Assembly (NCBI GenBank): GCA_017887885.1
Contig: JAGHHB010000017.1
Location: 1-48,154, forward strand
Length of the DNA: 48,154 nucleotides
Reading direction: 5' to 3'
Source: Bacilli bacterium
GTDB taxonomy: Bacteria > Bacillota_I > Bacilli_A > RF39 > UBA660
The notes below the pieces were generated by a model. That model was given only the letters and a program-made list of their open reading frames with translations. It searched no databases and had not been told where the DNA came from. Positions 12,270 to 36,684 of this stretch are shown in pieces. Every line of letters starts with the position of its first letter. Positions within the stretch are counted from its first letter, which is position 1. The position numbers and the translations under genes were made by a program.

Positions 12270-12294
12270 AAATTATTTCCCGGGAAATAATTTT
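12269..12294. promoter_or_regulatory. NBS-type palindrome (Noc-binding-site core ATTTCCCGGGAAAT), copy 1
   Basis: Perfect 26-bp palindrome AAAATTATTTCCCGGGAAATAATTTT that begins at the last base of the polA stop codon. Confidence 0.7.
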
Positions 12295-18725: not shown

Positions 18726-20486
18726 ATGTTTAAAGGAATAATTGCTATAACTAAAAATTATGCTATTGTAAAAATAGATGGTATTGTCAGTGACGATCTA
18801 CTTAATCTAAATGTTATTTTCGAAGAAAATAATAAAAAAATTTTAGGAGAAATTGAAGAAATTATCAATGGCGAAGCAAAAATTAATTTTTTAGGAGAAT
18901 TTCATAATAATAAGTTTTTTGATGGTATAATAAGAAAACCTAGCATAAATGCTTCTATTCGGATTATTAATGCTGACGAATTAAAAGAAATTACTGGAAA
19001 TAATGATCAATATAGTATGACACTTGGACTTTCGCCACTTTATAATGATACTCCTATTAAAATAAATATTGATGATATGTGGAGTAATCATAGTGCAATA
19101 TTTGGTAATACTGGATCTGGTAAAACCTATGGTGTAGCTAGAGTTGTTCAAAATTTATTTACTATGCCTAATTATATTCCTTTTAATAGTATTATGTTCA
19201 TATTTAATAATACTGATGAATATGACAGTGCATTTAGCTCTATTAACAGATATAATCCTAATTTTAATTATAAGCTTTTTACGACTAATACTGATAGTGA
19301 TAATAATTTACTTAAACTTCCTCTTTGGCTTTTATCAATCGATGATTATGCTAATATTTTAGATATCACTGAATATTCCCAAATTATGATCATTGAAAAA
19401 ATGCTTATATATGTGTCTTTATTTTCGAAGAATGACGAAGAGAGTAATAAATATAAAAATCATTTAATTGCTAAAGCTATCGTTTCTGTTTTATATTCTA
19501 ATCAGGTAGCGGCAAGAATAAGAGATCAAATTTTTTCTATTTTGACAGATTGCTATACAAAAGAATTAAATCTTGATGTTGAAATACCTGGTGTTGGTTA
19601 TACGAGATCTTTTAGAAAGTGTTTTGATATCGATAGCAAAGGAGAATTTGTGGAAAGAATCCTAATTACAGAATATATTAATAAATTTATTGATAATAAT
19701 ATTGAATGGAAAGAAGAATACATTCCTACTTATTTTACAATTAATGATCTAGAAGTCGCACTTAATTTCACACTTATTTCAGAAGGTCTTTTATTAAATG
19801 AGAAATCATATAGTGAAGCAACAGCATTGAAAGTTAAACTTCATACTATTGCTAATAGTTCTATAAGAAAATTTTTTGAGGTCGATAATTTTATTTCAAC
19901 AAGTGATTTTATATCTAATTTAATTTTAATTGGTAATAATAAAAGAGCACAAATTATTAACTTTGTTCTCGAAGGAATTGATGATAGATTAGCTAAAAAT
20001 TTAGTAAAAGTATATTCAAGAATATTATTTAATTTTTTAAAAACACTTCCTGTAAGAGGAAGTATGCCCATACATATTATGCTTGAAGAAGCGCATCGAT
20101 ATGTTCAAAAAGATAATGATATCAATATTTTAGGATATAATATTTTTGAAAGAATTGCTAAAGAAGGAAGAAAATTTGGTGTTGTACTTGATTTAATTAC
20201 TCAAAGACCGACTGAATTATCAGAAACTGTTATATCACAATGTAGTAATTTTCTAATCTTTAAGATTAATCATCCTAGCGATTTAGAATATATAGAAAAA
20301 ATGGTTCCTAATATTAGCAGTGATGTTATTGAAAAGCAAAAATCACTACAATCAGGAACTTGTGTAGCTTTTGGTAAAATGATGAAAATTCCTATGATTG
20401 TTAAAATGCAACTTCCTAGTCCACCTCCTGAAAGTTCTAATGCTAAAGTTTTTGATAAGTGGATGGTACAGTGGAAAAATAATTAA
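18726..20486 (+). CDS. HerA/FtsK-superfamily ATPase (DUF87-like), orphan
   Basis: N-terminal barrel-like region, Walker A GNTGSGKTY, Walker B IHIMLEEAHRY, distal motif GRKFGVVLDLITQRPTELSETVISQCSNFLIFKINHPSD. Confidence 0.75.
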   Translation: MFKGIIAITKNYAIVKIDGIVSDDLLNLNVIFEENNKKILGEIEEIINGEAKINFLGEFHNNKFFDGIIRKPSINASIRIINADELKEITGNNDQYSMTLGLSPLYNDTPIKINIDDMWSNHSAIFGNTGSGKTYGVARVVQNLFTMPNYIPFNSIMFIFNNTDEYDSAFSSINRYNPNFNYKLFTTNTDSDNNLLKLPLWLLSIDDYANILDITEYSQIMIIEKMLIYVSLFSKNDEESNKYKNHLIAKAIVSVLYSNQVAARIRDQIFSILTDCYTKELNLDVEIPGVGYTRSFRKCFDIDSKGEFVERILITEYINKFIDNNIEWKEEYIPTYFTINDLEVALNFTLISEGLLLNEKSYSEATALKVKLHTIANSSIRKFFEVDNFISTSDFISNLILIGNNKRAQIINFVLEGIDDRLAKNLVKVYSRILFNFLKTLPVRGSMPIHIMLEEAHRYVQKDNDINILGYNIFERIAKEGRKFGVVLDLITQRPTELSETVISQCSNFLIFKINHPSDLEYIEKMVPNISSDVIEKQKSLQSGTCVAFGKMMKIPMIVKMQLPSPPPESSNAKVFDKWMVQWKNN

Positions 20487-20526: not shown

Positions 20527-20638
20527 TATATCAACAACCCTGTTGAAAAAAATATTAACACCTGTTATTTTATTTTATCAACAAATTTGTTGATATCTTT
20601 ATTTTTCTTTTAATTATAAAGGTTTAAGTTGTTGATAA
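20527..20638. promoter_or_regulatory. oriC part 1: DnaA-box cluster upstream of dnaA
   Basis: ATATCAACA (20528-20536, +), TTATCAACA (20575-20583, +), ATATCAACA (20588-20596, -), TTATCAACA (20630-20638, -). The middle two form the palindrome TTATCAACAAATTTGTTGATAT. Confidence 0.75.
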
Positions 20639-20671: not shown

Positions 20672-20699
20672 TAGACAAAATTTATTTTTGCGTTATAAT
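20672..20699 (+). promoter_or_regulatory. putative dnaA promoter
   Basis: -35 TAGACA (20672-20677), 16-bp spacer, -10 TATAAT (20694-20699). Confidence 0.5.
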
Positions 20700-20735
20700 A
20701 ATTTTAATGGGACTTTAAAGCAAGGAGGTTTGGGA

Positions 20736-22094
20736 ATGAACACAGATATGTTATGGAATAATTTTTTAAATAAAATTAAAGAACGTATATCTCCTTTATC
20801 TTATGATACTTGGTTTAAAGATACTAAACTTTATAAAATTGAAAAAAATTTAGCTATTATTATTGTTCCAATGATTCTACATAAAAAACATTTGGAAGAA
20901 AATTATAAAGATGATATTGAAGAAATTTTTAATTCAATTACTGGTACTAATTTTATATTCCAATTTAAACTAGAAAGTGAATTATCAGATAGTTATGAAA
21001 AAAGTGAGCAAATTGTCAACGATCTTGGTGGAGTACCATACCAAAGTAGTGTTAGTGCCAATTTGAAAAGTGAATATACTTTTGATAATTTTATTGTTGG
21101 TGATTCAAATAGATTTGCCTTTACGGCCGCTAGAGCGGTGGCAGAAAAGCCTGGTAAAGCTTATAATCCTTTATTTTTATATGGCAAAAGCGGTTTAGGG
21201 AAAACGCATTTAATGCACTCTATTGGCAATTATATCATTGAAAATTCTAATAAAAAAGTACTTTATGTATCTAGCGAACAATTTGTAAATGATTATATTA
21301 TGGCTGTTCGAAATAATGATAAAAATAGCTTTGAGAAAATAGATTCTTTTAAAAACAAATACCGTAATATTGATGTTCTAATTATAGATGATATTCAGTT
21401 TTTAGGCACTGCAACAAAAGGACAAGAAGAATTCTTTCATACTTTTAATCAATTACATGATTCTAATAAGCAAATAATTATTGCTTCTGACAGATCGGTT
21501 GATGATTTAAAAATGTTAGAAGACCGTCTAATTACAAGATTTAATTGGGGGCTTACCGCTAATATTACACCACCAGATTTTAACTTAAGGGTAAATATTA
21601 TAAAGAAAAAAATATCACACCAAGAGGCTGCTGAAGATATTCCTATCGAAGTTATAGAATACATTGCTAATATTAATGATTCAGACGTTAGACAATTAGA
21701 GGGAGCAATTACAAGAGTGTTTGCTTATGCTCTAATGATGAATAAAGGAAAAGTTACTTTAGATGTAGCAGTTGAAGCTTTAAAAGATAGAATTAGTGAT
21801 CGAAGTGTCTATAAAAATGACGTACATAGAATACAAAGAATCGTATGCGAATATTTTAAAATAGATATTGAAGATTTAAAAGGAAAGAAAAGAAGTAAAG
21901 ATATAAATTATCCACGACAAATTGCTATTTATTTATGCCGAATTATGACAAATGAATCTTTTCCTAAAATGGGTACTTATTTTGGAGGAAGAGATCATTC
22001 TACTATTATTAGTGCTTATCAAAAAATAGAAAAAGATTTAAAAACAAATAGTCAGTTACAAACAGTAATTAAAGAACTAAAAAGTAGGATATAG
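20736..22094 (+). CDS. dnaA: chromosomal replication initiator DnaA
   Basis: AAA+ motifs (LFLYGKSGLGKTHL, VLIIDDIQF). C-terminal DNA-binding domain (YPRQIAIYLCR, GGRDHSTI). ATG at 20736 follows RBS AGGAGG; the track start at 20688 is unlikely. Confidence 0.96.
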   Translation: MNTDMLWNNFLNKIKERISPLSYDTWFKDTKLYKIEKNLAIIIVPMILHKKHLEENYKDDIEEIFNSITGTNFIFQFKLESELSDSYEKSEQIVNDLGGVPYQSSVSANLKSEYTFDNFIVGDSNRFAFTAARAVAEKPGKAYNPLFLYGKSGLGKTHLMHSIGNYIIENSNKKVLYVSSEQFVNDYIMAVRNNDKNSFEKIDSFKNKYRNIDVLIIDDIQFLGTATKGQEEFFHTFNQLHDSNKQIIIASDRSVDDLKMLEDRLITRFNWGLTANITPPDFNLRVNIIKKKISHQEAAEDIPIEVIEYIANINDSDVRQLEGAITRVFAYALMMNKGKVTLDVAVEALKDRISDRSVYKNDVHRIQRIVCEYFKIDIEDLKGKKRSKDINYPRQIAIYLCRIMTNESFPKMGTYFGGRDHSTIISAYQKIEKDLKTNSQLQTVIKELKSRI

Positions 22095-22196
22095 TTGATA
22101 ACTTTCATTTTATCAACAGCTACTGTGGAGAAAAAAACTTTATTAATAAAGAGAATATACTGGTTTTAAACAATATCAACAGTATAATAATAATAA
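22093..22196. promoter_or_regulatory. oriC part 2: DnaA boxes plus a TAA-repeat tract between dnaA and dnaN
   Basis: TTATCAACT (22093-22101, -, overlaps the dnaA stop), TTATCAACA (22110-22118, +), TTCTCCACA (22124-22132, -), ATATCAACA (22173-22181, +), then (TAA)x4 at 22185-22196. Confidence 0.7.
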
Positions 22197-23419: not shown

Positions 23420-23464
23420 TAAATATACACTACATATTTTTATATGTGGAAAGGGGGAATTTTG

Positions 23465-23920
23465 GTGAACGATTATATTATTAATGAAAATACTTTATGT
23501 TTTGCTCAAGATATGGATAATGATGACACTTTACTTGTAATCGAAAAAACGAAGAAAATAAATATCAAAATGAAATGTCTTAAATTTATTAATAAATGTT
23601 GTTGTTGCTATGGTTACTCTTATAATATGCAAAGACAGTTTGTTATCGATAAATTTAACTTTTATATTAAGACACCAATTATTGTATCTGAGTATAATAT
23701 GTTTATTTTCTTTCCGACAGCTTCACCTCATTCAAAAGATTGTATATGGATTTCATATAATAATGTCGAGAGATATGTTAAAGAAAAAGATTATACAAAA
23801 GTATATTTTAAAGGCGGAAAAGTTTTAAATATTAACGCTAAATATACTACCATTGATAATCAAATTACAAAGTGCATTAAAATTGAAAGATACTTGAATA
23901 ATTTGAAGATGAAAAGATAA
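23465..23920 (+). CDS. ComK-family transcription factor
   Basis: Aligns by eye with B. subtilis ComK: CCCCYGYSY vs CRFFGSSY, KTPIIVSEYNMFIFFPTASPHSKDCIWIS vs KPPIMVDPSNQIFLFPTLSSTRPQCGWIS. GTG at 23465 follows RBS AAGGGGG; the alternative ATG is at 23444. Confidence 0.75.
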   Translation: MNDYIINENTLCFAQDMDNDDTLLVIEKTKKINIKMKCLKFINKCCCCYGYSYNMQRQFVIDKFNFYIKTPIIVSEYNMFIFFPTASPHSKDCIWISYNNVERYVKEKDYTKVYFKGGKVLNINAKYTTIDNQITKCIKIERYLNNLKMKR

Positions 23921-24036: not shown

Positions 24037-27096
<3,060 letters not shown>

Positions 27097-27111: not shown

Positions 27112-29610
27112 ATGGAAAATGAAGAAAACAAATTAGATGTTCTAAAAACAGAAACTGAAAAGAGTAATTTTAGTGATCGTTTTCATGAAAGGGATAGTCT
27201 TTTAGAAAATAATATTGTTGAAGAAGTTAAAAATTCTTTTTTGGAGTATTCAATGAGCGTCATCACTTCACGTGTTTTACCAGATTTACGTGATGGTCTT
27301 AAACCTGTTCATAGAAGAATTTTATGGAGTATGTATAATTCTGGATATACTCCTGATAAACCTCATCGAAAATCTGCTAAAACTGTCGGTGAAGTTATGG
27401 GTAATTATCATCCACATGGCGATAGTTCAATATATGAAGCAATGGTTAGAATGGCTCAAGATTTTAAACAACGATATTTGTTAATTGACGGACATGGTAA
27501 TTTTGGTAATATTGAAGGTGATGGTCCCGCAGCAATGCGTTATACCGAATCACGTTTATCTAAATTATCTTTAGAATTACTTAGTGATATTAAGAAAAAT
27601 ACTGTTGATATGATTAAAAACTTTGATGAAACTTTAGAAGAACCAGTTGTTTTGCCAAGTAGATTCCCTAATATTTTAGTTAATGGTACAATGGGAATTG
27701 CAGTTGGAATGGCGACTAATATTCCCCCTCACAATTTAGGTGAAGTCATTGATGGTTGTATTGCTTATATTGATAATCACGATATTGATACATTGGAATT
27801 AATGCAATATATTAAGGGGCCAGACTTTCCTACAGGTGGTATAATTCTTGGTAATTCTGGTATTCGAAAAGCTTATGAAACAGGAAGAGGCTCTATTACA
27901 ATTCGCAGTAAGGCTGTTATTGAAGAAAGTAATAATCATAATAGTATTGTAATTACAGAAGTTCCTTATGGTGTCAGTACTATGGAATTAAAAAATAAGG
28001 TTGCTGAACTTGTCAGAGATAAAATAATTGATGGCATATCTGATTATCATACCGATTTAAAAAATGGTGTTAAAATAACTATTACATTAAAAAGAGATGC
28101 TAATCCTCAAGTTGTTCTTAATAACTTATATAAACATACTAACTTTCAAATTTCTTATGGTATTATCTTTTTGATGCTAGATGGTAAAAATCCAAGAACA
28201 CTTGGTATTAAGGATATTATTTCCAAGTATATTGATTATCAAAAGGAAGTAATTATAAGAAGAACTAGATTTGATTTAGAAAAAGACGAGAAGCGCGTTC
28301 ATATTCTGGAAGGTTATAAAATCGCTTTAGATGATATTGATGAAGTAATTAGAATAATTAAAACCGCTAATAGTGATGTTGAAGCTAAAAAGAAATTGAT
28401 AGAAAAATTTGATTTCTCTGACCTTCAAGTTGATGCTATTTTGGAATTGAAATTACGTCGTTTAACAGGTCTAGAAAGAGAAAAAATTGAATCAGAATTA
28501 AAAGAATTATTGCTTGAAATTGCTGATCTTAAAGCAATTTTAGCATCAGAAAAAAAGATTCTTGATATTATAAAAAGAGAACTTCTAGAAATTAAAAATA
28601 AATATAGTGATGACAGAAGGACACATATCGATATGACTGCAGTGGAATATATAGAAGATGAGAGTCTAATACCTGAAGAGAGCATTGTTATTACTTTAAC
28701 AAAAAATGGCTATATTAAAAGGCTTCCATCCGATACTTATAAAACACAAAATCGTGGTGGCATGGGCATTAAAGGTATGACTATTAATGAGGAAGATTTT
28801 GTTGAACATTTAATTAATTCTACTACACATGATTATATTTTAATGTTTAGCAATAAAGGTAAAGTGTATCGTATTAAAGGATATGAAATTCCTGAATATA
28901 GTAGACAATCTAAAGGCTTACCAATTATTAATTTGCTTAATTTAGATAAAGATGAGAAGATTACATCACTCCTTAAAATATCTAATAATGGCGAATATAA
29001 GTATTTAGTATTTGCTACAAAGATGGGTTTAATTAAACGTACTGATATTTCTGAATTTATTAATATCAGAAATAATGGTAAAAAGGCTATAAATTTGAGA
29101 GCTGACGATGAGTTAGTATCCGTTAAAAAAACAACTGGTGAAGATGATATTTTAATGGCTTCTTCTAATGGTCGAATGGTTAGATTTAAAGAAAATGTGG
29201 TAAGAGTACTCGGAAGATCTGCTGCCGGTGTTAGGGGTATTAATCTTGACGGAGGAGTTCTTGTTGATATGGAGATTGCAAATGCTAGTGAATATATACT
29301 TGTTATTACACAGAAAGGTTATGGTAAAAAAACTCCTACTAGCGAATATAGAATCACAAATAGAGGAGGAAAAGGTGTCAAGACTGTTAATATTACTGAA
29401 AAAAATGGCCCAATTGTTTCGTTTAAAACTGTTGATGAAAATAAGGATTTGATTATTATAACTGATTCCGGTATTGTTATTCGCCTCGATATAGATAAAA
29501 TTTCTATTATGAGTAGAGTTACACAGGGTGTGAAATTAATTAATTTAAAGGAAAATAATGTAGTAACTTCGACATCTATTGTTGATAAAGAAAAAATAGA
29601 GACAGAGTAG
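27112..29610 (+). CDS. gyrA: DNA gyrase subunit A
   Basis: [28 protein letters not shown], and the active-site region AAMRYTE. Confidence 0.97.
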
Positions 29611-29666: not shown

Positions 29667-29692
29667 TAAATTATTTTCCGGGAAATAATTTA
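29667..29692. promoter_or_regulatory. NBS-type palindrome, copy 3 (variant)
   Basis: TAAATTATTTTCCGGGAAATAATTTA. Same element with a single C-to-T change in the core (TTCCGGG instead of TCCCGGG). Confidence 0.55.
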
Positions 29693-29734: not shown

Positions 29735-29763
29735 TTGCAATATTAATCAAAATATTATATAAT
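29735..29763 (+). promoter_or_regulatory. promoter of the SRP RNA gene
   Basis: -35 TTGCAA (29735-29740), 17-bp spacer, -10 TATAAT (29758-29763). Confidence 0.6.
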
Positions 29764-29769
29764 GTATTC

Positions 29770-29850
29770 GATACAACATTAATTAGTGGAACCAAGTCAG
29801 GAACGGAAGTTAGCAGCTTTAACACTTAATTAATGTGTGTATCTTTTTTT
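29770..29850 (+). ncRNA. ffs: signal recognition particle RNA, short 4.5S-like form
   Basis: Conserved domain IV sequence CCAAGUCAGGAACGGAAGUUAGCAGC (E. coli CCAGGUCAGGUCCGGAAGGAAGCAGC) with a GGAA tetraloop. A long closing helix pairs GATACAACATTAATTAGTG with CACTTAATTAATGTGTGTATC, followed by a T7 run. Lies near tadA and dnaX, as scr does in B. subtilis. Confidence 0.85.
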
Positions 29851-29903
29851 ATTTAAAATGTATTTTATATTATATGGATAGATATAAACTAAATTAAAAA
29901 ACA

Positions 29904-29919
29904 TGTTCCACGTGGAACA
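29904..29919. promoter_or_regulatory. parS-type ParB/Spo0J binding site 1
   Basis: TGTTCCACGTGGAACA, a perfect palindrome. It has one mismatch to TGTTNCACGTGAAACA, and both half-sites are TGTTCCAC. Confidence 0.75.
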
Positions 29920-29984
29920 TAGAAATATATAAAACTTGAATAATTAGTCTTAATACGAAAGATATAAACTAAAATAATAAATAA

Positions 29985-30000
29985 TGTTTCACGTGGAACA
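29985..30000. promoter_or_regulatory. parS-type ParB/Spo0J binding site 2
   Basis: TGTTTCACGTGGAACA. Its reverse complement TGTTCCACGTGAAACA matches the B. subtilis parS consensus exactly. Confidence 0.8.
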
Positions 30001-30065
30001 TAGAAATATATAAAACTTGAATAATTAGTCTTAATATGAAAGATATAAACTGAATTAATGAATAA

Positions 30066-30081
30066 TGTTTCACGTGGAACA
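30066..30081. promoter_or_regulatory. parS-type ParB/Spo0J binding site 3
   Basis: TGTTTCACGTGGAACA, identical to site 2. It lies 62 nt upstream of the tadA ATG. Confidence 0.8.
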
Positions 30082-30142
30082 TAAGAACATATATTGTTTA
30101 AAGTAATTTTATGTGGTAGTATTTTTCTTAATGGTGGTAATA

Positions 30143-30565
30143 ATGGAAAATAAATATTTAGAAATAGCAATTAAACAAGCAAAAAAAGCATACAAGAAAA
30201 ATGAAATCCCTGTTGGATGTGTAATTGTTAAAAATGATACAATTATATCATATGGATATAATTGCAAAGAAAAAAGAAAAAAAGCTACTATGCATGCTGA
30301 AATTGTTGCCATAAATAGAGCTTGTAAAAAATTAAAGAGTTGGCGTTTGGATGACTGTGTATTATATGTTACTTTAGAGCCCTGTATGATGTGTCTAGGT
30401 GCTATTTTTGAAAGTAGAATTAAATATGTTTATTTTGGAACAAAATATAAAGGCAAACAAATGTTTGATTTAGGAGAATGTCATAATATTACTTTTATCG
30501 ATTTAAAAAATAAAGAATGTGCAAAACTTTTAACGAATTTTTTTACTAATAAAAGAAAAAAATAA
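30143..30565 (+). CDS. tadA: tRNA-specific adenosine deaminase
   Basis: Zinc motifs HAE (MHAEIVAI) and PCMMC. ATG at 30143 follows GGTGG; the track start at 30113 is less likely. Confidence 0.9.
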   Translation: MENKYLEIAIKQAKKAYKKNEIPVGCVIVKNDTIISYGYNCKEKRKKATMHAEIVAINRACKKLKSWRLDDCVLYVTLEPCMMCLGAIFESRIKYVYFGTKYKGKQMFDLGECHNITFIDLKNKECAKLLTNFFTNKRKK

Positions 30566-30618: not shown

Positions 30619-32262
30619 ATGGCATATTTGGCATTGTATAGAAAATATAGACCCAACAGTTTTGATGACGTTTTGGGACAAAATAAAGTAGTTGCTGTGA
30701 TAAAGAATGCTATTATTAATAATAAAGTTTCTCATGCTTATTTATTTAGTGGTCCGCGTGGTACAGGAAAAACGACTGTTGCTAAAATATTAGCGCGACT
30801 TGTCAATTGTGAAAGATTATCTAGTGATGGTAAACCTTGTGAGAAATGTTTTAATTGTATTAATTATTTAAATAGCAATGATATCGTAGAAATTGATGCT
30901 GCATCAAATAATGGTGTTGATGAAATTAGAGAATTGATTGATAAGGTTAATTTAGTTCCTAGTAATGCTAAATATAAGATTTATATAATTGACGAAGTTC
31001 ATATGCTTACGAATCAAGCTTTTAATGCCTTACTTAAAACTTTAGAAGAACCGCCTTCTCATGTTATATTTGTTTTAGCAACTACTGATCCGCAAAAAGT
31101 ACCTTTAACTATTTCTTCTCGCTGTCAAAAATTTCAATTTTCAAAAATAGATGACATGTGTATTGTGGAGCGCTTACAAAAAATTGTTGCTTTAGAAAAG
31201 ATTAATATTGATGAAGAAGCTCTATTTGAAATTGCTAGACTTTCTGATGGTGGAATGCGCGATGCTATTAATATGTTAGACCAATTGGCAACATATGAGA
31301 GTGGTCAAATTACTCTTGATGAAGTTCATATGGTTGCTGGTTCTGTCTCATATGATAATATATTTAATTTAATGGAAGCAATAAAATTAAATAACAAGAT
31401 AGCAATAATTAATTTTATTGAAGAATTTGATAAAAGCGGAAAAGAACTAAATAAATTTATTCAAGAATTAATTGTCTTTCTGAAAGATGTTATTTTATTT
31501 AAAAGTACAAAAAAATTAGAAAAAGGCGAAGTTAAAAGAAAGAATATTATGTTAATTGATGAGTTATATAACGAACATGATTTGTATAATTTTATTGAGG
31601 TTCTTAATGAAACAAGTAATAAAATAAAATTTTCTTCACATGGATCAATTATTTTTATGACTACTGTGTTGAAATTTTCTGATAATAATTTTAAAGAAAC
31701 AAATAAAATTATTTCCCGGGAAATAATTTCATTAGTGGAAACAGATGATGAGAATTTAAATGAAAAAAATATTTCCCAAAAAATAATTAATAAATATTCA
31801 ATAGGAAGAGATGAAATTGGAGTTAGAATAAATAATTCCTTTGCAACTGCTTCTAAAGAATTTTTAAAAAATATAAAAAATGACTGGTATAAAATAGATG
31901 ATTATATATCCGATGATGAATTTTCTGTAGTTAGCGGTCTTCTTAAAGATTCCCTTCCTGTAGTGGGATCTGCACAATACTTGACAATTGTTAATAAATT
32001 TGATTCGATTGTCGAGAGAATTAATGAAAATATTACATTGACAGAAAGACTGTTAAAAAAAGTTTTTAATTATGATATGATAATTGTTGCTATTAATGAT
32101 ATTACTTGGGAAGAAGAAAAAAATAAATATATTACAAATATAAAGAAAAATATTAAATATAATATAATTGAATTACCTGAAAAAGAAGAGCAAAAAAAAA
32201 TTAAAACATCAATTGATCATCTTGCAGAAATGTTAGGTGAGGATATTATTGAATATAAATAA
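30619..32262 (+). CDS. dnaX: DNA polymerase III subunit gamma/tau
   Basis: YRKYRP, Walker A GPRGTGKTT, zinc module CEKCFNC, DEVHML, SRCQKF. Confidence 0.94.
   Translation: MAYLALYRKYRPNSFDDVLGQNKVVAVIKNAIINNKVSHAYLFSGPRGTGKTTVAKILARLVNCERLSSDGKPCEKCFNCINYLNSNDIVEIDAASNNGVDEIRELIDKVNLVPSNAKYKIYIIDEVHMLTNQAFNALLKTLEEPPSHVIFVLATTDPQKVPLTISSRCQKFQFSKIDDMCIVERLQKIVALEKINIDEEALFEIARLSDGGMRDAINMLDQLATYESGQITLDEVHMVAGSVSYDNIFNLMEAIKLNNKIAIINFIEEFDKSGKELNKFIQELIVFLKDVILFKSTKKLEKGEVKRKNIMLIDELYNEHDLYNFIEVLNETSNKIKFSSHGSIIFMTTVLKFSDNNFKETNKIISREIISLVETDDENLNEKNISQKIINKYSIGRDEIGVRINNSFATASKEFLKNIKNDWYKIDDYISDDEFSVVSGLLKDSLPVVGSAQYLTIVNKFDSIVERINENITLTERLLKKVFNYDMIIVAINDITWEEEKNKYITNIKKNIKYNIIELPEKEEQKKIKTSIDHLAEMLGEDIIEYK
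31706..31729. promoter_or_regulatory. NBS-type palindrome, copy 4 (inside dnaX)
   Basis: Perfect 24-bp palindrome AAATTATTTCCCGGGAAATAATTT, translated as KIISREII in the variable linker of DnaX. Confidence 0.7.
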
Positions 32263-35836: not shown

Positions 35837-36684
35837 TCCAGTCGAGTTACGATGAACATGCTACTTTATATTTAGTATCAACACCAATTGGTAATTTAGA
35901 TGATATTACTTATCGTGCTGTTAAGGTTTTACAAGACGTAAGCGTAATATTCTCCGAAGATACGAGAGTTACGTTAAATTTACTTAATAATTTTGAGATT
36001 AAAAAAAAGTTAATTTCTTTACATGAGCATAATGAAGACACAGTTAAAGATACTGTTTTGAGTTATTTGAAGCAAGGCCTTTCAGTAGCTTTAGTGACAG
36101 ATAGAGGAACACCTATTATTAGTGATCCTGGTTTTAAGACGGTAAAGTATGTCATTCAAAATAATTATAATGTAGTGGCAATTCCTGGTGTAACAGCTTT
36201 AATACCCGCACTTATTACTTCTGGTATTGCTCCTAAACCTTTTTTATTTTATGGATTTTTGAGTAATAAGGATAGTAGAAAAAAAGAAGAATTAATAATG
36301 TTAAAGGATTATCGTGAAACAATAATTTTTTATGAAGCTCCTCATCGAATAAAGAATACTTTAAATTTAATGTTACAAGTGTTGGGAGATCGTGAAATTA
36401 GTATTTCCCGAGAAATTACTAAAAAATTTGAAACTATCTATCGTGGAAAAATTTCTGATATTATAGAAATTGTATTGGAAAAAGGTGAATTTGTTATTAT
36501 TGTCGAAGGTTTTTCTGGTAAGATAATAAATAATACTTCTTTATCTATTAGGGAGGCTGTCGATTTTTATATTAGTGAGGGATTAGATGTTATGAATTCG
36601 ATTAAGCGTGTGGCTAAAGACCGCAATATGGTAAAAAATGATGTTTATATGGAGTATCATAAGGGGGATCATAAATGCGATTGA
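35833..36684 (+). CDS. rsmI: 16S rRNA (cytidine1402-2'-O)-methyltransferase
   Basis: LYLVSTPIGNLDDITYRAV, EDTR, EAPHR, REITKKFE motifs. Confidence 0.9.
   Translation: MIQSSYDEHATLYLVSTPIGNLDDITYRAVKVLQDVSVIFSEDTRVTLNLLNNFEIKKKLISLHEHNEDTVKDTVLSYLKQGLSVALVTDRGTPIISDPGFKTVKYVIQNNYNVVAIPGVTALIPALITSGIAPKPFLFYGFLSNKDSRKKEELIMLKDYRETIIFYEAPHRIKNTLNLMLQVLGDREISISREITKKFETIYRGKISDIIEIVLEKGEFVIIVEGFSGKIINNTSLSIREAVDFYISEGLDVMNSIKRVAKDRNMVKNDVYMEYHKGDHKCD

What the first reader, a model, noticed from the sequence alone, without database searches (positions are those of the whole stretch)
29881..30097. Three parS-type sites arranged as an 81-bp tandem repeat array (centromere-like cluster)
Seen: there are three head-to-tail copies of an ~81-bp unit, starting at 29881, 29961 and 30042, the third being partial. 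Each contains a 16-bp palindrome: TGTTCCACGTGGAACA (29904-29919), then TGTTTCACGTGGAACA twice (29985-30000 and 30066-30081). Centre-to-centre spacing is 81 bp. Established: the reverse complement of the latter two is TGTTCCACGTGAAACA, which matches the Spo0J/ParB parS consensus TGTTNCACGTGAAACA exactly. The first is a symmetric version built from the TGTTCCAC half-site. Inference: as I recall, chromosomal parS sites in Firmicutes are usually dispersed single sites, often inside genes. A regularly spaced tandem array made by duplicating a parS-bearing unit looks more like a plasmid centromere. It would be a very strong ParB nucleation and SMC-loading point about 8 kb from oriC. The third site lies 62 nt upstream of the tadA start, so ParB occupancy could affect tadA-dnaX expression.
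Basis: partly seen in the sequence, partly recalled or inferred. Interest (0 to 1): 0.7.

Follow-up and report, generated by a model that had tools for sequence, protein, structure and literature searches.

The report
Tandem parS centromere array near oriC
This is a real tandem array of textbook chromosome-segregation (parS) sites in an uncultured gut Bacilli bacterium; its copy number differs between strains, but similar arrays occur in many bacteria, so it is a clear example rather than a new kind of element.

Summary
An 81-bp unit is repeated 2.6 times at 29880-30094. Each copy carries a 16-bp palindrome that fits the ParB/Spo0J parS consensus, and none is expected by chance. The array lies in the gene-free spacer gyrA - SRP RNA - [array] - tadA-dnaX. 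It is 7.7-9.3 kb from the DnaA-box clusters that flank dnaA.

Independent assemblies of the same species (99.6% identical) carry 3, 4 or 7 units, so the array is real and its copy number varies. Among the units, the 16-mer varies only at positions 5 and 12, the tolerated ones.

All five relatives picked only by TadA similarity have 3-9 parS in the same spacer. Eighteen further MAGs in GTDB have arrays there, with periods from 36 to 88 bp. What is conserved is the position and the multiplicity, not the spacing.

Of these loci, 37 are true tandem repeats and 44 encode a ParB motif nearby.

The centromere reading is therefore well supported, but the claim that the array is unusual or plasmid-like is not. 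ParB itself could not be checked because it is not in the 66 kb I could reach.

The parts
29880..30094 (.). Tandem array of an 81-bp unit (2.6 copies in this assembly), with one parS per unit
   Evidence: TRF gives period 81, 91% matches, score 356. The direct-repeat families agree. The same array has 3, 4 or 7 units in other assemblies of the species.
29904..29919 (.). parS site 1, TGTTCCACGTGGAACA. It is a perfect palindrome made of two TGTTCCAC half-sites.
   Evidence: One mismatch to TGTTNCACGTGAAACA, at position 12, which is the mirror of the free position 5. The site is identical in all same-species assemblies.
29985..30000 (.). parS site 2, TGTTTCACGTGGAACA. Its reverse complement is TGTTCCACGTGAAACA.
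   Evidence: Zero mismatches on the minus strand. The allele TGTTTCACGTGAAACA occurs at this site in strains L142-L146.
30066..30081 (.). parS site 3, TGTTTCACGTGGAACA, in the last (partial) unit, with 61 nt between it and the tadA ATG
   Evidence: Zero mismatches on the minus strand. It is retained as the last site in every allele.
29765..29851 (+). Small SRP RNA gene (ffs/scr) just upstream of the array. It forms the left edge of the centromere spacer.
   Evidence: Rfam RF00169, 56.7 bits against a gathering score of 40, E 6.7e-10. A promoter-like site, TTGCAA-17-TATAAT, lies at 29735-29763. In relatives the SRP RNA gene lies on either side of the parS cluster.
27112..29610 (+). gyrA, the upstream gene that bounds the spacer (context)
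   Evidence: NCBIfam NF004043 and TIGR01063, E = 0.
30143..30565 (+). tadA, the downstream gene that bounds the spacer, followed by dnaX-ybaB-recR (context)
   Evidence: NCBIfam NF008113, 1.3e-31. dnaX, ybaB and recR were identified.
20529..20637 (.). Cluster of four TATCAACA DnaA-box-like sites upstream of dnaA (putative oriC, left part)
   Evidence: There are 15 exact TATCAACA in the window against 3.4 expected, and four of them lie here.
22111..22181 (.). Two exact TATCAACA boxes, plus further near-matches in the same spacer, between dnaA and dnaN (putative oriC, right part). The site is 7.7 kb from the array.

Best explanation
The array is the chromosomal centromere, or one of them, of an uncultured, AT-rich (27% GC), spore-forming gut Bacilli species. 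Each 81-bp unit carries one canonical ParB/Spo0J binding palindrome.

Inferred mechanism, taken from what is established for the ParABS family:
- ParB dimers bind each parS, take up CTP, close into clamps and slide into flanking DNA. This frees the site for another round of loading.
- Several adjacent sites multiply the loading flux from what is effectively a single point.
- The resulting large ParB-DNA complex close to oriC is moved by ParA/Soj and loads SMC-ScpAB.
- Because the sites are packed within a few hundred bp, they add strength and redundancy without creating separate SMC loading points that could collide.

Shown here:
- The sites are exact consensus matches, and only the tolerated positions vary.
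- Copy number differs among strains (3, 4 and 7 units). Unequal recombination or replication slippage between 81-bp units would explain this.
- The multi-parS cluster occupies the same gyrA-(SRP RNA)-tadA spacer throughout a clade of gut Bacilli, while unit length and spacing differ. Position and multiplicity are therefore what is conserved.

Not shown: ParB binding, SMC loading, or any effect on tadA expression.
For: - Three exact-class parS sites against 0.00 expected, and no others in the window. None occur in the further 18 kb reached on either side.
- Among the 17 unit copies listed from the window and three further assemblies (L127, L128, L001), the 16-mer varies only at positions 5 and 12. 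The flanks vary at 15 of 24 and 7 of 41 columns.
- Same-species assemblies, 99.1-99.7% identical outside the array, carry different numbers of units. The window, L127 and L142-L146 have 3, L128 has 4 and L001 has 7.
- Five relatives were chosen only by TadA similarity and contig length. All have 3-9 exact-class parS, and four of them also have 1-2 degenerate copies, in a gene-free gyrA-tadA spacer of 0.95-1.6 kb. None has a site elsewhere in its 8-kb locus.
- Twenty GTDB loci from 18 MAGs of 'Bacilli/Erysipelotrichaceae' bacteria hold a parS cluster between gyrA and tadA. The tandem ones have periods of 36, 39, 74-76 and 79-93 bp.
- The array is origin-proximal: TATCAACA boxes cluster on both sides of dnaA.
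- In 44 of the 120 multi-parS loci from other taxa, a ParB box-II motif (GERRxRA) is encoded within the same 8 kb. Such clusters are therefore ordinarily true ParB centromeres.
- The Noc-binding-site consensus ATTTCCCGGGAAAT occurs 3 times exactly and twice with one mismatch, against 0.22 expected. This suggests a ParB-family paralogue in this organism.
- Literature: DNA condensation by ParB-CTP strengthens with parS number, and 5-7 sites were needed in a magnetic-tweezers assay (PMC8299390). Clustered parS is the common state, and tight clustering avoids SMC collisions (PMC8357415).
Against: - No ParB, Soj/ParA, Noc or SMC gene lies in the window or in the extra 8 kb to the left and 10 kb to the right. 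The cognate protein is inferred, not seen.
- GC skew and GC3 skew stay positive across the whole window, and most genes left of dnaA are on the + strand. The oriC position rests on DnaA boxes alone.
- Copy numbers come from short-read metagenome assemblies, which can collapse or break at such repeats. Contigs L003-L006 end inside the array, and two MAGs are split by theirs.
- Nothing here shows binding or function.
Confidence: 0.8

Rival explanations
1. The array is real, but the three-unit count in this window comes from short-read assembly collapsing near-identical 81-bp units. The true array in that sample would be longer.
For: Short Logan contigs of the 7-unit strain all end inside the last unit (L003-L006). 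Two MAGs of relatives are split into two contigs exactly at their arrays: L019 with L107, and L086 with L110. Ten of the 37 tandem arrays abut an end of their locus.
Against: Seven independent assemblies give 3 units each: the window, L127 on a 311-kb scaffold, and L142-L146, including unitig-type Logan contigs of 6.8 and 27.8 kb that run straight through the array. They carry two different middle-site alleles, and the three units differ enough to be resolved. The 4- and 7-unit alleles come from other strains with their own SNPs.
Confidence: 0.15
2. The palindromes are operators for a different transcription factor, not ParB, that regulates tadA-dnaX or the SRP RNA gene. The resemblance to parS would be coincidental.
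For: The last site lies 61 nt upstream of tadA. The first palindrome followed by a T-run scores as a terminator-like hairpin on the minus strand.
Against: Two sites match the parS consensus at all 15 specified positions of the 16-mer. The third departs only at position 12, the mirror of the free position 5. The variation is confined to the positions ParB tolerates. Relatives carry up to 9-15 copies spread over 0.3-1.3 kb, on either side of the SRP RNA gene, which is unlike an operator. Promoter-like hits in the region are at chance level, 7 found against 7.2 expected. In other taxa the same clusters sit beside parB.
Confidence: 0.04
3. The array is an integrated plasmid or mobile-element centromere of the sopC type, not the host's own chromosomal centromere.
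For: It has a head-to-tail repeat architecture with one palindrome per unit, as in F sopC, which has 12 units of 43 bp (PMC3177203).
Against: There is no match to 72,556 PLSDB plasmids, even in distant mode. The neighbours are core genes in conserved synteny (gyrB-gyrA-scr-tadA-dnaX-ybaB-recR), with no par, rep or integrase genes. The cluster occupies the same spacer across a whole clade. The site sequence is the chromosomal consensus.
Confidence: 0.02
4. The repeat encodes a repetitive protein on the minus strand. This is the ORF at 29889-30170, 93 aa here and 201 aa in the 7-unit strain.
For: The unit is 81 = 27 x 3 bp, and one minus-strand frame stays open through every unit.
Against: The ORF begins with TTG inside tadA on the antisense strand. 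No gene was called between gyrA and tadA in any of the fetched contigs that span this spacer in this species or its relatives. Given this base composition, I estimate about a 40% chance that one of six frames is open over 27 codons. Arrays in relatives have periods that are not multiples of 3 (74, 76, 79, 82, 88).
Confidence: 0.01

Closest known systems
Bacillus subtilis Spo0J/ParB parS sites (consensus TGTTNCACGTGAAACA)
   Same: The 16-bp palindrome is the same. Two sites match at all 15 specified positions of the 16-mer, and the third is the symmetric form of a known half-site. The organism is a Firmicute with PolC and sporulation genes, and the sites are origin-proximal.
   Different: In B. 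subtilis, eight sites are scattered over about 0.75 Mb (PMC8357415), and from my own knowledge most lie inside genes. Here 3-7 sites are packed at 81-bp intervals in one intergenic spacer as a homogenised tandem repeat, and no other site lies within about 66 kb.
Myxococcus xanthus chromosomal parS cluster (22-24 sites in about 3 kb; PMC3899335)
   Same: It is a dense, origin-proximal chromosomal cluster of many consensus parS in non-coding DNA. ParB was shown to bind that cluster.
   Different: The M. xanthus cluster lies about 4 kb from parAB. Here no parAB lies within reach, the units are near-identical 81-bp repeats, and copy number differs between strains.
F plasmid sopC centromere (12 direct repeats of 43 bp, each with a 16-bp inverted repeat bound by SopB; PMC3177203)
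   Same: The architecture matches: head-to-tail repeats with one ParB-family binding palindrome per unit.
   Different: sopC is on a plasmid next to sopAB, with a different site sequence. Here the site is the chromosomal consensus in a core-gene context, with no DNA similarity to any PLSDB plasmid.
Clustered chromosomal parS of Caulobacter, Pseudomonas and Corynebacterium (PMC5815017, PMC4368675, PMC7083940)
   Same: Several parS lie close to oriC and act together as one centromere. A single site can suffice, so the extra sites are redundant or add strength.
   Different: In those cases the spacing is hundreds of bp to kb, the sites are independent rather than duplicated units, and no tandem-repeat copy-number variation is reported.

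Membership tests
Chromosomal parS (ParB/Spo0J centromere site) | A 16-bp palindrome that matches TGTTNCACGTGAAACA | tested here: met
   two sites have 0 mismatches and one has 1 mismatch, at the mirror of the free position. 0.00 matches are expected by chance.
Chromosomal parS (ParB/Spo0J centromere site) | Location in the origin-proximal part of the chromosome | tested here: inconclusive
   dnaA-dnaN-recF-gyrBA lie immediately upstream. TATCAACA box clusters flank dnaA, 7.7-9.3 kb away. However, GC skew and GC3 skew do not invert anywhere in the window.
Chromosomal parS (ParB/Spo0J centromere site) | The site sequence is kept under selection while its surroundings diverge | tested here: met
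   Only positions 5 and 12 vary among units. In relatives, 3-9 intact sites lie in unrelated spacer sequence at the same locus.
Chromosomal parS (ParB/Spo0J centromere site) | A cognate ParB (N-terminal CTPase domain plus HTH) encoded in the genome, usually with ParA/Soj | not testable with these tools
   None lies in the window or in the extra 8 kb to the left and 10 kb to the right, and the rest of the genome cannot be reached. The only indirect hint is the enrichment of Noc-binding-site motifs.
Chromosomal parS (ParB/Spo0J centromere site) | ParB binds and spreads from the site, and SMC is loaded there | not testable with these tools
   This needs ChIP-seq, Hi-C or biochemistry.
Plasmid tandem-repeat centromere (sopC type) | Head-to-tail repeats, each with one binding palindrome | tested here: met
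Plasmid tandem-repeat centromere (sopC type) | Carried on a plasmid or mobile element next to its own parAB operon | tested here: not met
   The context is core chromosomal genes with clade-wide synteny. There is no plasmid similarity and no par genes nearby.
Dense chromosomal parS cluster (Myxococcus type) | Many consensus parS within 3 kb or less of non-coding DNA | tested here: met
   There are 3-7 sites within 0.2-0.55 kb in this species, and 3-15 in relatives.

The most novel reading that the evidence does not exclude
In this clade, and in many other bacteria, the chromosomal centromere may behave like a small satellite. It would be a tandem parS array held at a fixed genomic position, whose unit length turns over between species (36 to 93 bp) and whose copy number varies within a species (3, 4 and 7 here; 8 against 9 in a relative). 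Copy number could then be a naturally variable, selectable setting for ParB loading and SMC flux, and a systematic cause of MAG contig breaks next to oriC.
Probability: 0.3. Interest if true: 0.6.

Novelty: new member of a known kind. Interest (0 to 1): 0.4.

Why it matters
The locus gives a clean natural series of alleles with 3, 4 and 7 identical-context parS sites in one widespread gut species (its exact TadA sequence is indexed in 191 blocks of the assembly collection). It also gives a clade in which the centromere's position is fixed while its repeat structure turns over. That makes one question directly testable: what does the number and packing of parS sites do for ParB loading, condensate size and SMC flux? 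So far this has been studied mainly with synthetic 1x to 39x arrays.

There are practical consequences too. Such arrays mark the segregation centre in MAGs where dnaA and GC skew are ambiguous. They also explain recurrent contig breaks near the origin.

The finding does not reveal a new kind of system. The site is canonical, and dense parS clusters are already known.

Tried and rejected
- **Search for ParB, Soj, Noc and SMC.** I annotated all 37 substantial ORFs in the window. I then extended 8 kb to the left and 10 kb to the right through same-species contigs and found none. A look-up with the sigma-factor ORF failed because my start codon differed from the called gene. A ParB search of the 5.8-billion-protein database was not run. 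It returns only the 120 best hits to the query and cannot be aimed at one species.
- **Plasmid origin.** A distant-mode blastn of the array against PLSDB found nothing.
- **Coding repeat on the minus strand.** Rejected.
- **Promoters inside the units.** Hits are at chance level.
- **GC skew and third-position skew to fix oriC.** There is no sign change, so this is inconclusive.
- **Livny et al. 2007, the survey of parS distribution.** It is not held in the library, so its content is cited only through papers that quote it.
- **Literature search for chromosomal tandem parS arrays with copy-number variation.** Four searches found dense clusters and plasmid repeats but no description of this arrangement. 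That is absence in an incomplete library, not proof of novelty.
- **Taxon name.** Sources offer only 'Bacilli bacterium'.

Full report
**1. Observation**

Tandem Repeats Finder gives one array at 29880-30094 (period 81, 2.6 copies, 91% matches, score 356), far above any other repeat in the window. The repeat finder recovers the same register.

The three 16-mers lie at 29904, 29985 and 30066, spaced 81 and 81 bp apart. Two match TGTTNCACGTGAAACA perfectly on the minus strand. The first differs only at position 12, the mirror image of the free position 5. None is expected in shuffled sequence, and the 48-kb window has no other site within two mismatches.

**2. Context**

The window is the origin region of an AT-rich (about 27% GC) Firmicute that has PolC and sporulation genes (spoVT, spoIID, spoIIID). 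The gene order, all on the + strand, is:
- herA-like, dnaA (20688-22094), dnaN, a comK-like gene, recF, gyrB, gyrA (ending at 29610);
- the small SRP RNA gene (29765-29851, Rfam RF00169, 56.7 bits), then the array;
- tadA (ATG at 30143), dnaX, ybaB, recR, holB, ricT, trmN, rsmI, pth, mfd.

A good promoter-like site (TTGCAA-17-TATAAT) sits immediately before the SRP RNA gene. Promoter-like hits inside the array are at chance level.

The DnaA-box variant TATCAACA occurs 15 times against 3.4 expected. Four copies lie within 110 bp upstream of dnaA and two lie in the dnaA-dnaN spacer. A bipartite oriC flanking dnaA is therefore plausible, and the array lies 7.7-9.3 kb from it.

However, GC skew stays positive throughout. 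Third-position skew on the + strand only rises stepwise, from about 0.12 left of dnaA to 0.22 between dnaA and gyrA and 0.42 right of 30.6 kb, without changing sign. Most genes left of dnaA are also on the + strand. The oriC position is therefore supported by DnaA boxes only.

**3. Is the array real, and how many units does it have?**

The window's exact TadA sequence is indexed in 191 blocks of the assembly collection, so the species is widespread. Independent assemblies that are 99.1-99.7% identical to the window outside the array carry the same array with different unit numbers:
- three units in the window, in a 311-kb scaffold (L127), and in five contigs of a third strain (L142-L146), where the middle site is TGTTTCACGTGAAACA;
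- four units in L128;
- seven units (6.6 copies, 93% matches) in L001.

Short unitig-type contigs of the seven-unit strain all end inside the last unit (L003-L006), as expected when a repeat breaks a de Bruijn graph.

The array is therefore not an artefact, and its copy number very probably differs between strains. The exact counts still need long reads.

Among all the units, the 16-mer varies only at positions 5 and 12 (T/C and G/A). The flanks vary at 15 of 24 and 7 of 41 columns. This is the pattern expected if the ParB contacts are under selection.

**4. Relatives**

TadA homologues drop from 99% to about 60% identity, so the lineage is sparsely sampled. It is named only 'Bacilli bacterium'.

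I picked five relatives by TadA similarity and contig length alone, without regard to parS. Every one has a gene-free gyrA-tadA spacer of 0.95-1.6 kb. Each spacer holds the SRP RNA gene and 3-9 exact-class parS, and in four of the five also 1-2 degenerate copies, at irregular spacings of 44-314 bp. None has a site elsewhere in its 8-kb locus. Two assemblies of one relative differ by one site, 9 against 8 (L139 and L140).

In addition, 20 loci from 18 GTDB MAGs labelled Bacilli or Erysipelotrichaceae carry a parS cluster between gyrA and tadA; most are tandem arrays. Their periods are 36, 39, 74-76 and 79-93 bp, with up to 15 sites. Two of these MAGs are split into separate contigs exactly at the array.

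The SRP RNA gene lies upstream of the cluster in the window's closest relatives and downstream of it in others.

The conserved features are the genomic position and the presence of many sites. Unit length, phasing and flanking sequence are not conserved. The window's species simply has a recently homogenised 81-bp version.

**5. How unusual is this?**

I scanned one genome for each of 185,579 GTDB species for three parS spaced 66-96 bp apart. Hits came from Clostridia, Bacilli, Actinomycetota, Planctomycetota, Acidobacteriota, Bacteroidota, Patescibacteria, Myxococcota, Bdellovibrionota and others. They include cultured isolates and complete genomes such as Heliophilum fasciatum, Adlercreutzia murintestinalis, Gordonibacter faecis and Saltatorellus ferox.

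In 37 of these 120 loci, the sites lie in a true TRF tandem array (at least 80% matches, at least 2.5 copies) with periods of 36-96 bp. In 44 loci, a ParB box-II motif (…AGERRWRA…) is encoded within the same 8 kb. Elsewhere, then, such clusters usually sit beside parB.

The literature agrees on three points:
- Most bacteria have closely positioned or clustered parS, and scattering is restricted to a few lineages that include Bacilli (PMC8357415).
- M. xanthus has 22-24 parS in 3 kb, and ParB binds them (PMC3899335).
- Gut bacteria show parS clusters that mark the origin better than dnaA does (PMC10197239).

What stands out is that this Bacilli lineage has the tight arrangement rather than the scattered B. 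subtilis one. The array also has no similarity to any PLSDB plasmid.

**6. Mechanism**

This part is inferred from established ParABS biology, not shown here. ParB dimers bind each palindrome, bind CTP, close into clamps and slide away. This vacates the site for the next dimer. N adjacent sites give roughly N-fold loading from what is effectively one chromosomal point. The result is a large partition complex that ParA/Soj can move and that loads SMC-ScpAB.

In single-molecule assays, ParB-CTP condensation force rises with parS number, and 5-7 sites were needed to see condensation (PMC8299390). Tight clustering avoids collisions between SMC complexes loaded at distant sites (PMC8357415).

Unequal exchange or slippage between the 81-bp units would explain the 3, 4 and 7-unit alleles. 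The alleles are mosaics of unit variants.

An effect of ParB occupancy on tadA-dnaX is possible. ParB-dependent effects on neighbouring genes are reported in S. pneumoniae and P. aeruginosa (PMC4488948, PMC5521831). It is untested here.

**7. What is missing**

No ParB, Soj, Noc or SMC gene lies in the window or in the additional 18 kb I could reach, and the tools do not allow a search of the rest of this genome.

One indirect pointer to a ParB-family protein is a side observation. The consensus ATTTCCCGGGAAAT occurs three times exactly and twice with one mismatch in the window, against 0.22 expected. To my knowledge this is the Noc-binding site, and Noc is the ParB paralogue of Firmicutes (PMC11109969).

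**8. Rivals**

- Assembly collapse of the copy number in this particular window remains possible (confidence 0.15).
- An unrelated transcription-factor operator array is unlikely (0.04).
- An integrated plasmid centromere is unlikely (0.02).
- A minus-strand repeat protein is very unlikely (0.01). The ORF is 93 aa here and 201 aa in L001, and it is open only because the unit is 27 codons long. Periods in relatives are not multiples of three.

**9. Verdict**

This is a genuine, canonical chromosomal parS cluster in tandem-repeat form. It is copy-number polymorphic and positionally conserved across a clade. It is a new member of a known kind.

Interest is moderate at 0.4. The site itself is textbook and dense clusters are known. 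However, the natural allelic series and the satellite-like turnover across species are useful, and apparently little described.

Noticed in passing
window 12275-12288, 25131-25144, 31711-31724 (exact); 29673-29686, 36403-36416 (1 mismatch): The 14-bp palindrome ATTTCCCGGGAAAT, which I know as the Noc-binding-site consensus of Firmicutes, occurs 5 times within 1 mismatch against 0.22 expected. One copy lies 200 bp upstream of the parS array. The same sites are kept in strain L001. This suggests the organism has Noc, a ParB paralogue.
   Followed up: partly
window 1-48154 (dnaA at 20688-22094): GC skew never changes sign. GC3 skew on the + strand rises stepwise (about 0.12 left of dnaA, 0.22 from dnaA to gyrA, 0.42 right of 30.6 kb). 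Nearly all genes left of dnaA, and for 8 kb beyond the window in L132, are on the + strand, including polC, polA and a sigA-like gene. Either oriC is not at dnaA or the left flank was recently rearranged. The usual rpmH-rnpA...soj-spo0J block upstream of dnaA is absent, and a herA-like helicase gene (18726-20486) sits there instead.
   Followed up: partly
window 23444-23920: A ComK-family gene (Pfam PF06338, 6e-26) lies between dnaN and recF in the origin operon. The same placement is seen in relatives L055 and L107.
   Followed up: no
window 20529-20637 and 22111-22181: The DnaA boxes of this organism appear to be TATCAACA rather than TTATCCACA. There are 15 exact copies against 3.4 expected, clustered on both sides of dnaA.
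   Followed up: partly
L019 + L107 (MAG CAKOPG01) and L086 + L110 (MAG CANQNL01): In two GTDB MAGs the parS array is split between the end of one contig (gyrA side) and the start of another (tadA side). Ten of the 37 tandem arrays abut a locus end. Tandem parS arrays seem to be a recurrent cause of contig breaks next to the origin, so their true sizes are underestimated.
   Followed up: partly
L130 12129-17331 and L131 11974-17332 (same species, just right of the window end): A strain-variable island of about 5 kb lies between two copies of rpiB. It holds an HTH protein, thymidylate kinase, uracil-DNA glycosylase, a MazG-like gene, a nucleoside deoxyribosyltransferase and an rve integrase fragment. 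It is absent from L129.
   Followed up: no
L101 (CAYXLG010000003.1): This contig is labelled 'uncultured Muribaculaceae bacterium', but it has 24% GC and the Bacilli-type gyrA-parS-tadA-dnaX-ybaB-recR synteny. It is probably mis-binned or mislabelled.
   Followed up: no
window 29902-29921, minus strand: The first parS palindrome followed by TTTTTTAATT scores as an intrinsic-terminator-like hairpin on the minus strand (8 pairs, 3 G-C), with 0.0 expected in shuffles. Only the first unit has this T-run.
   Followed up: no
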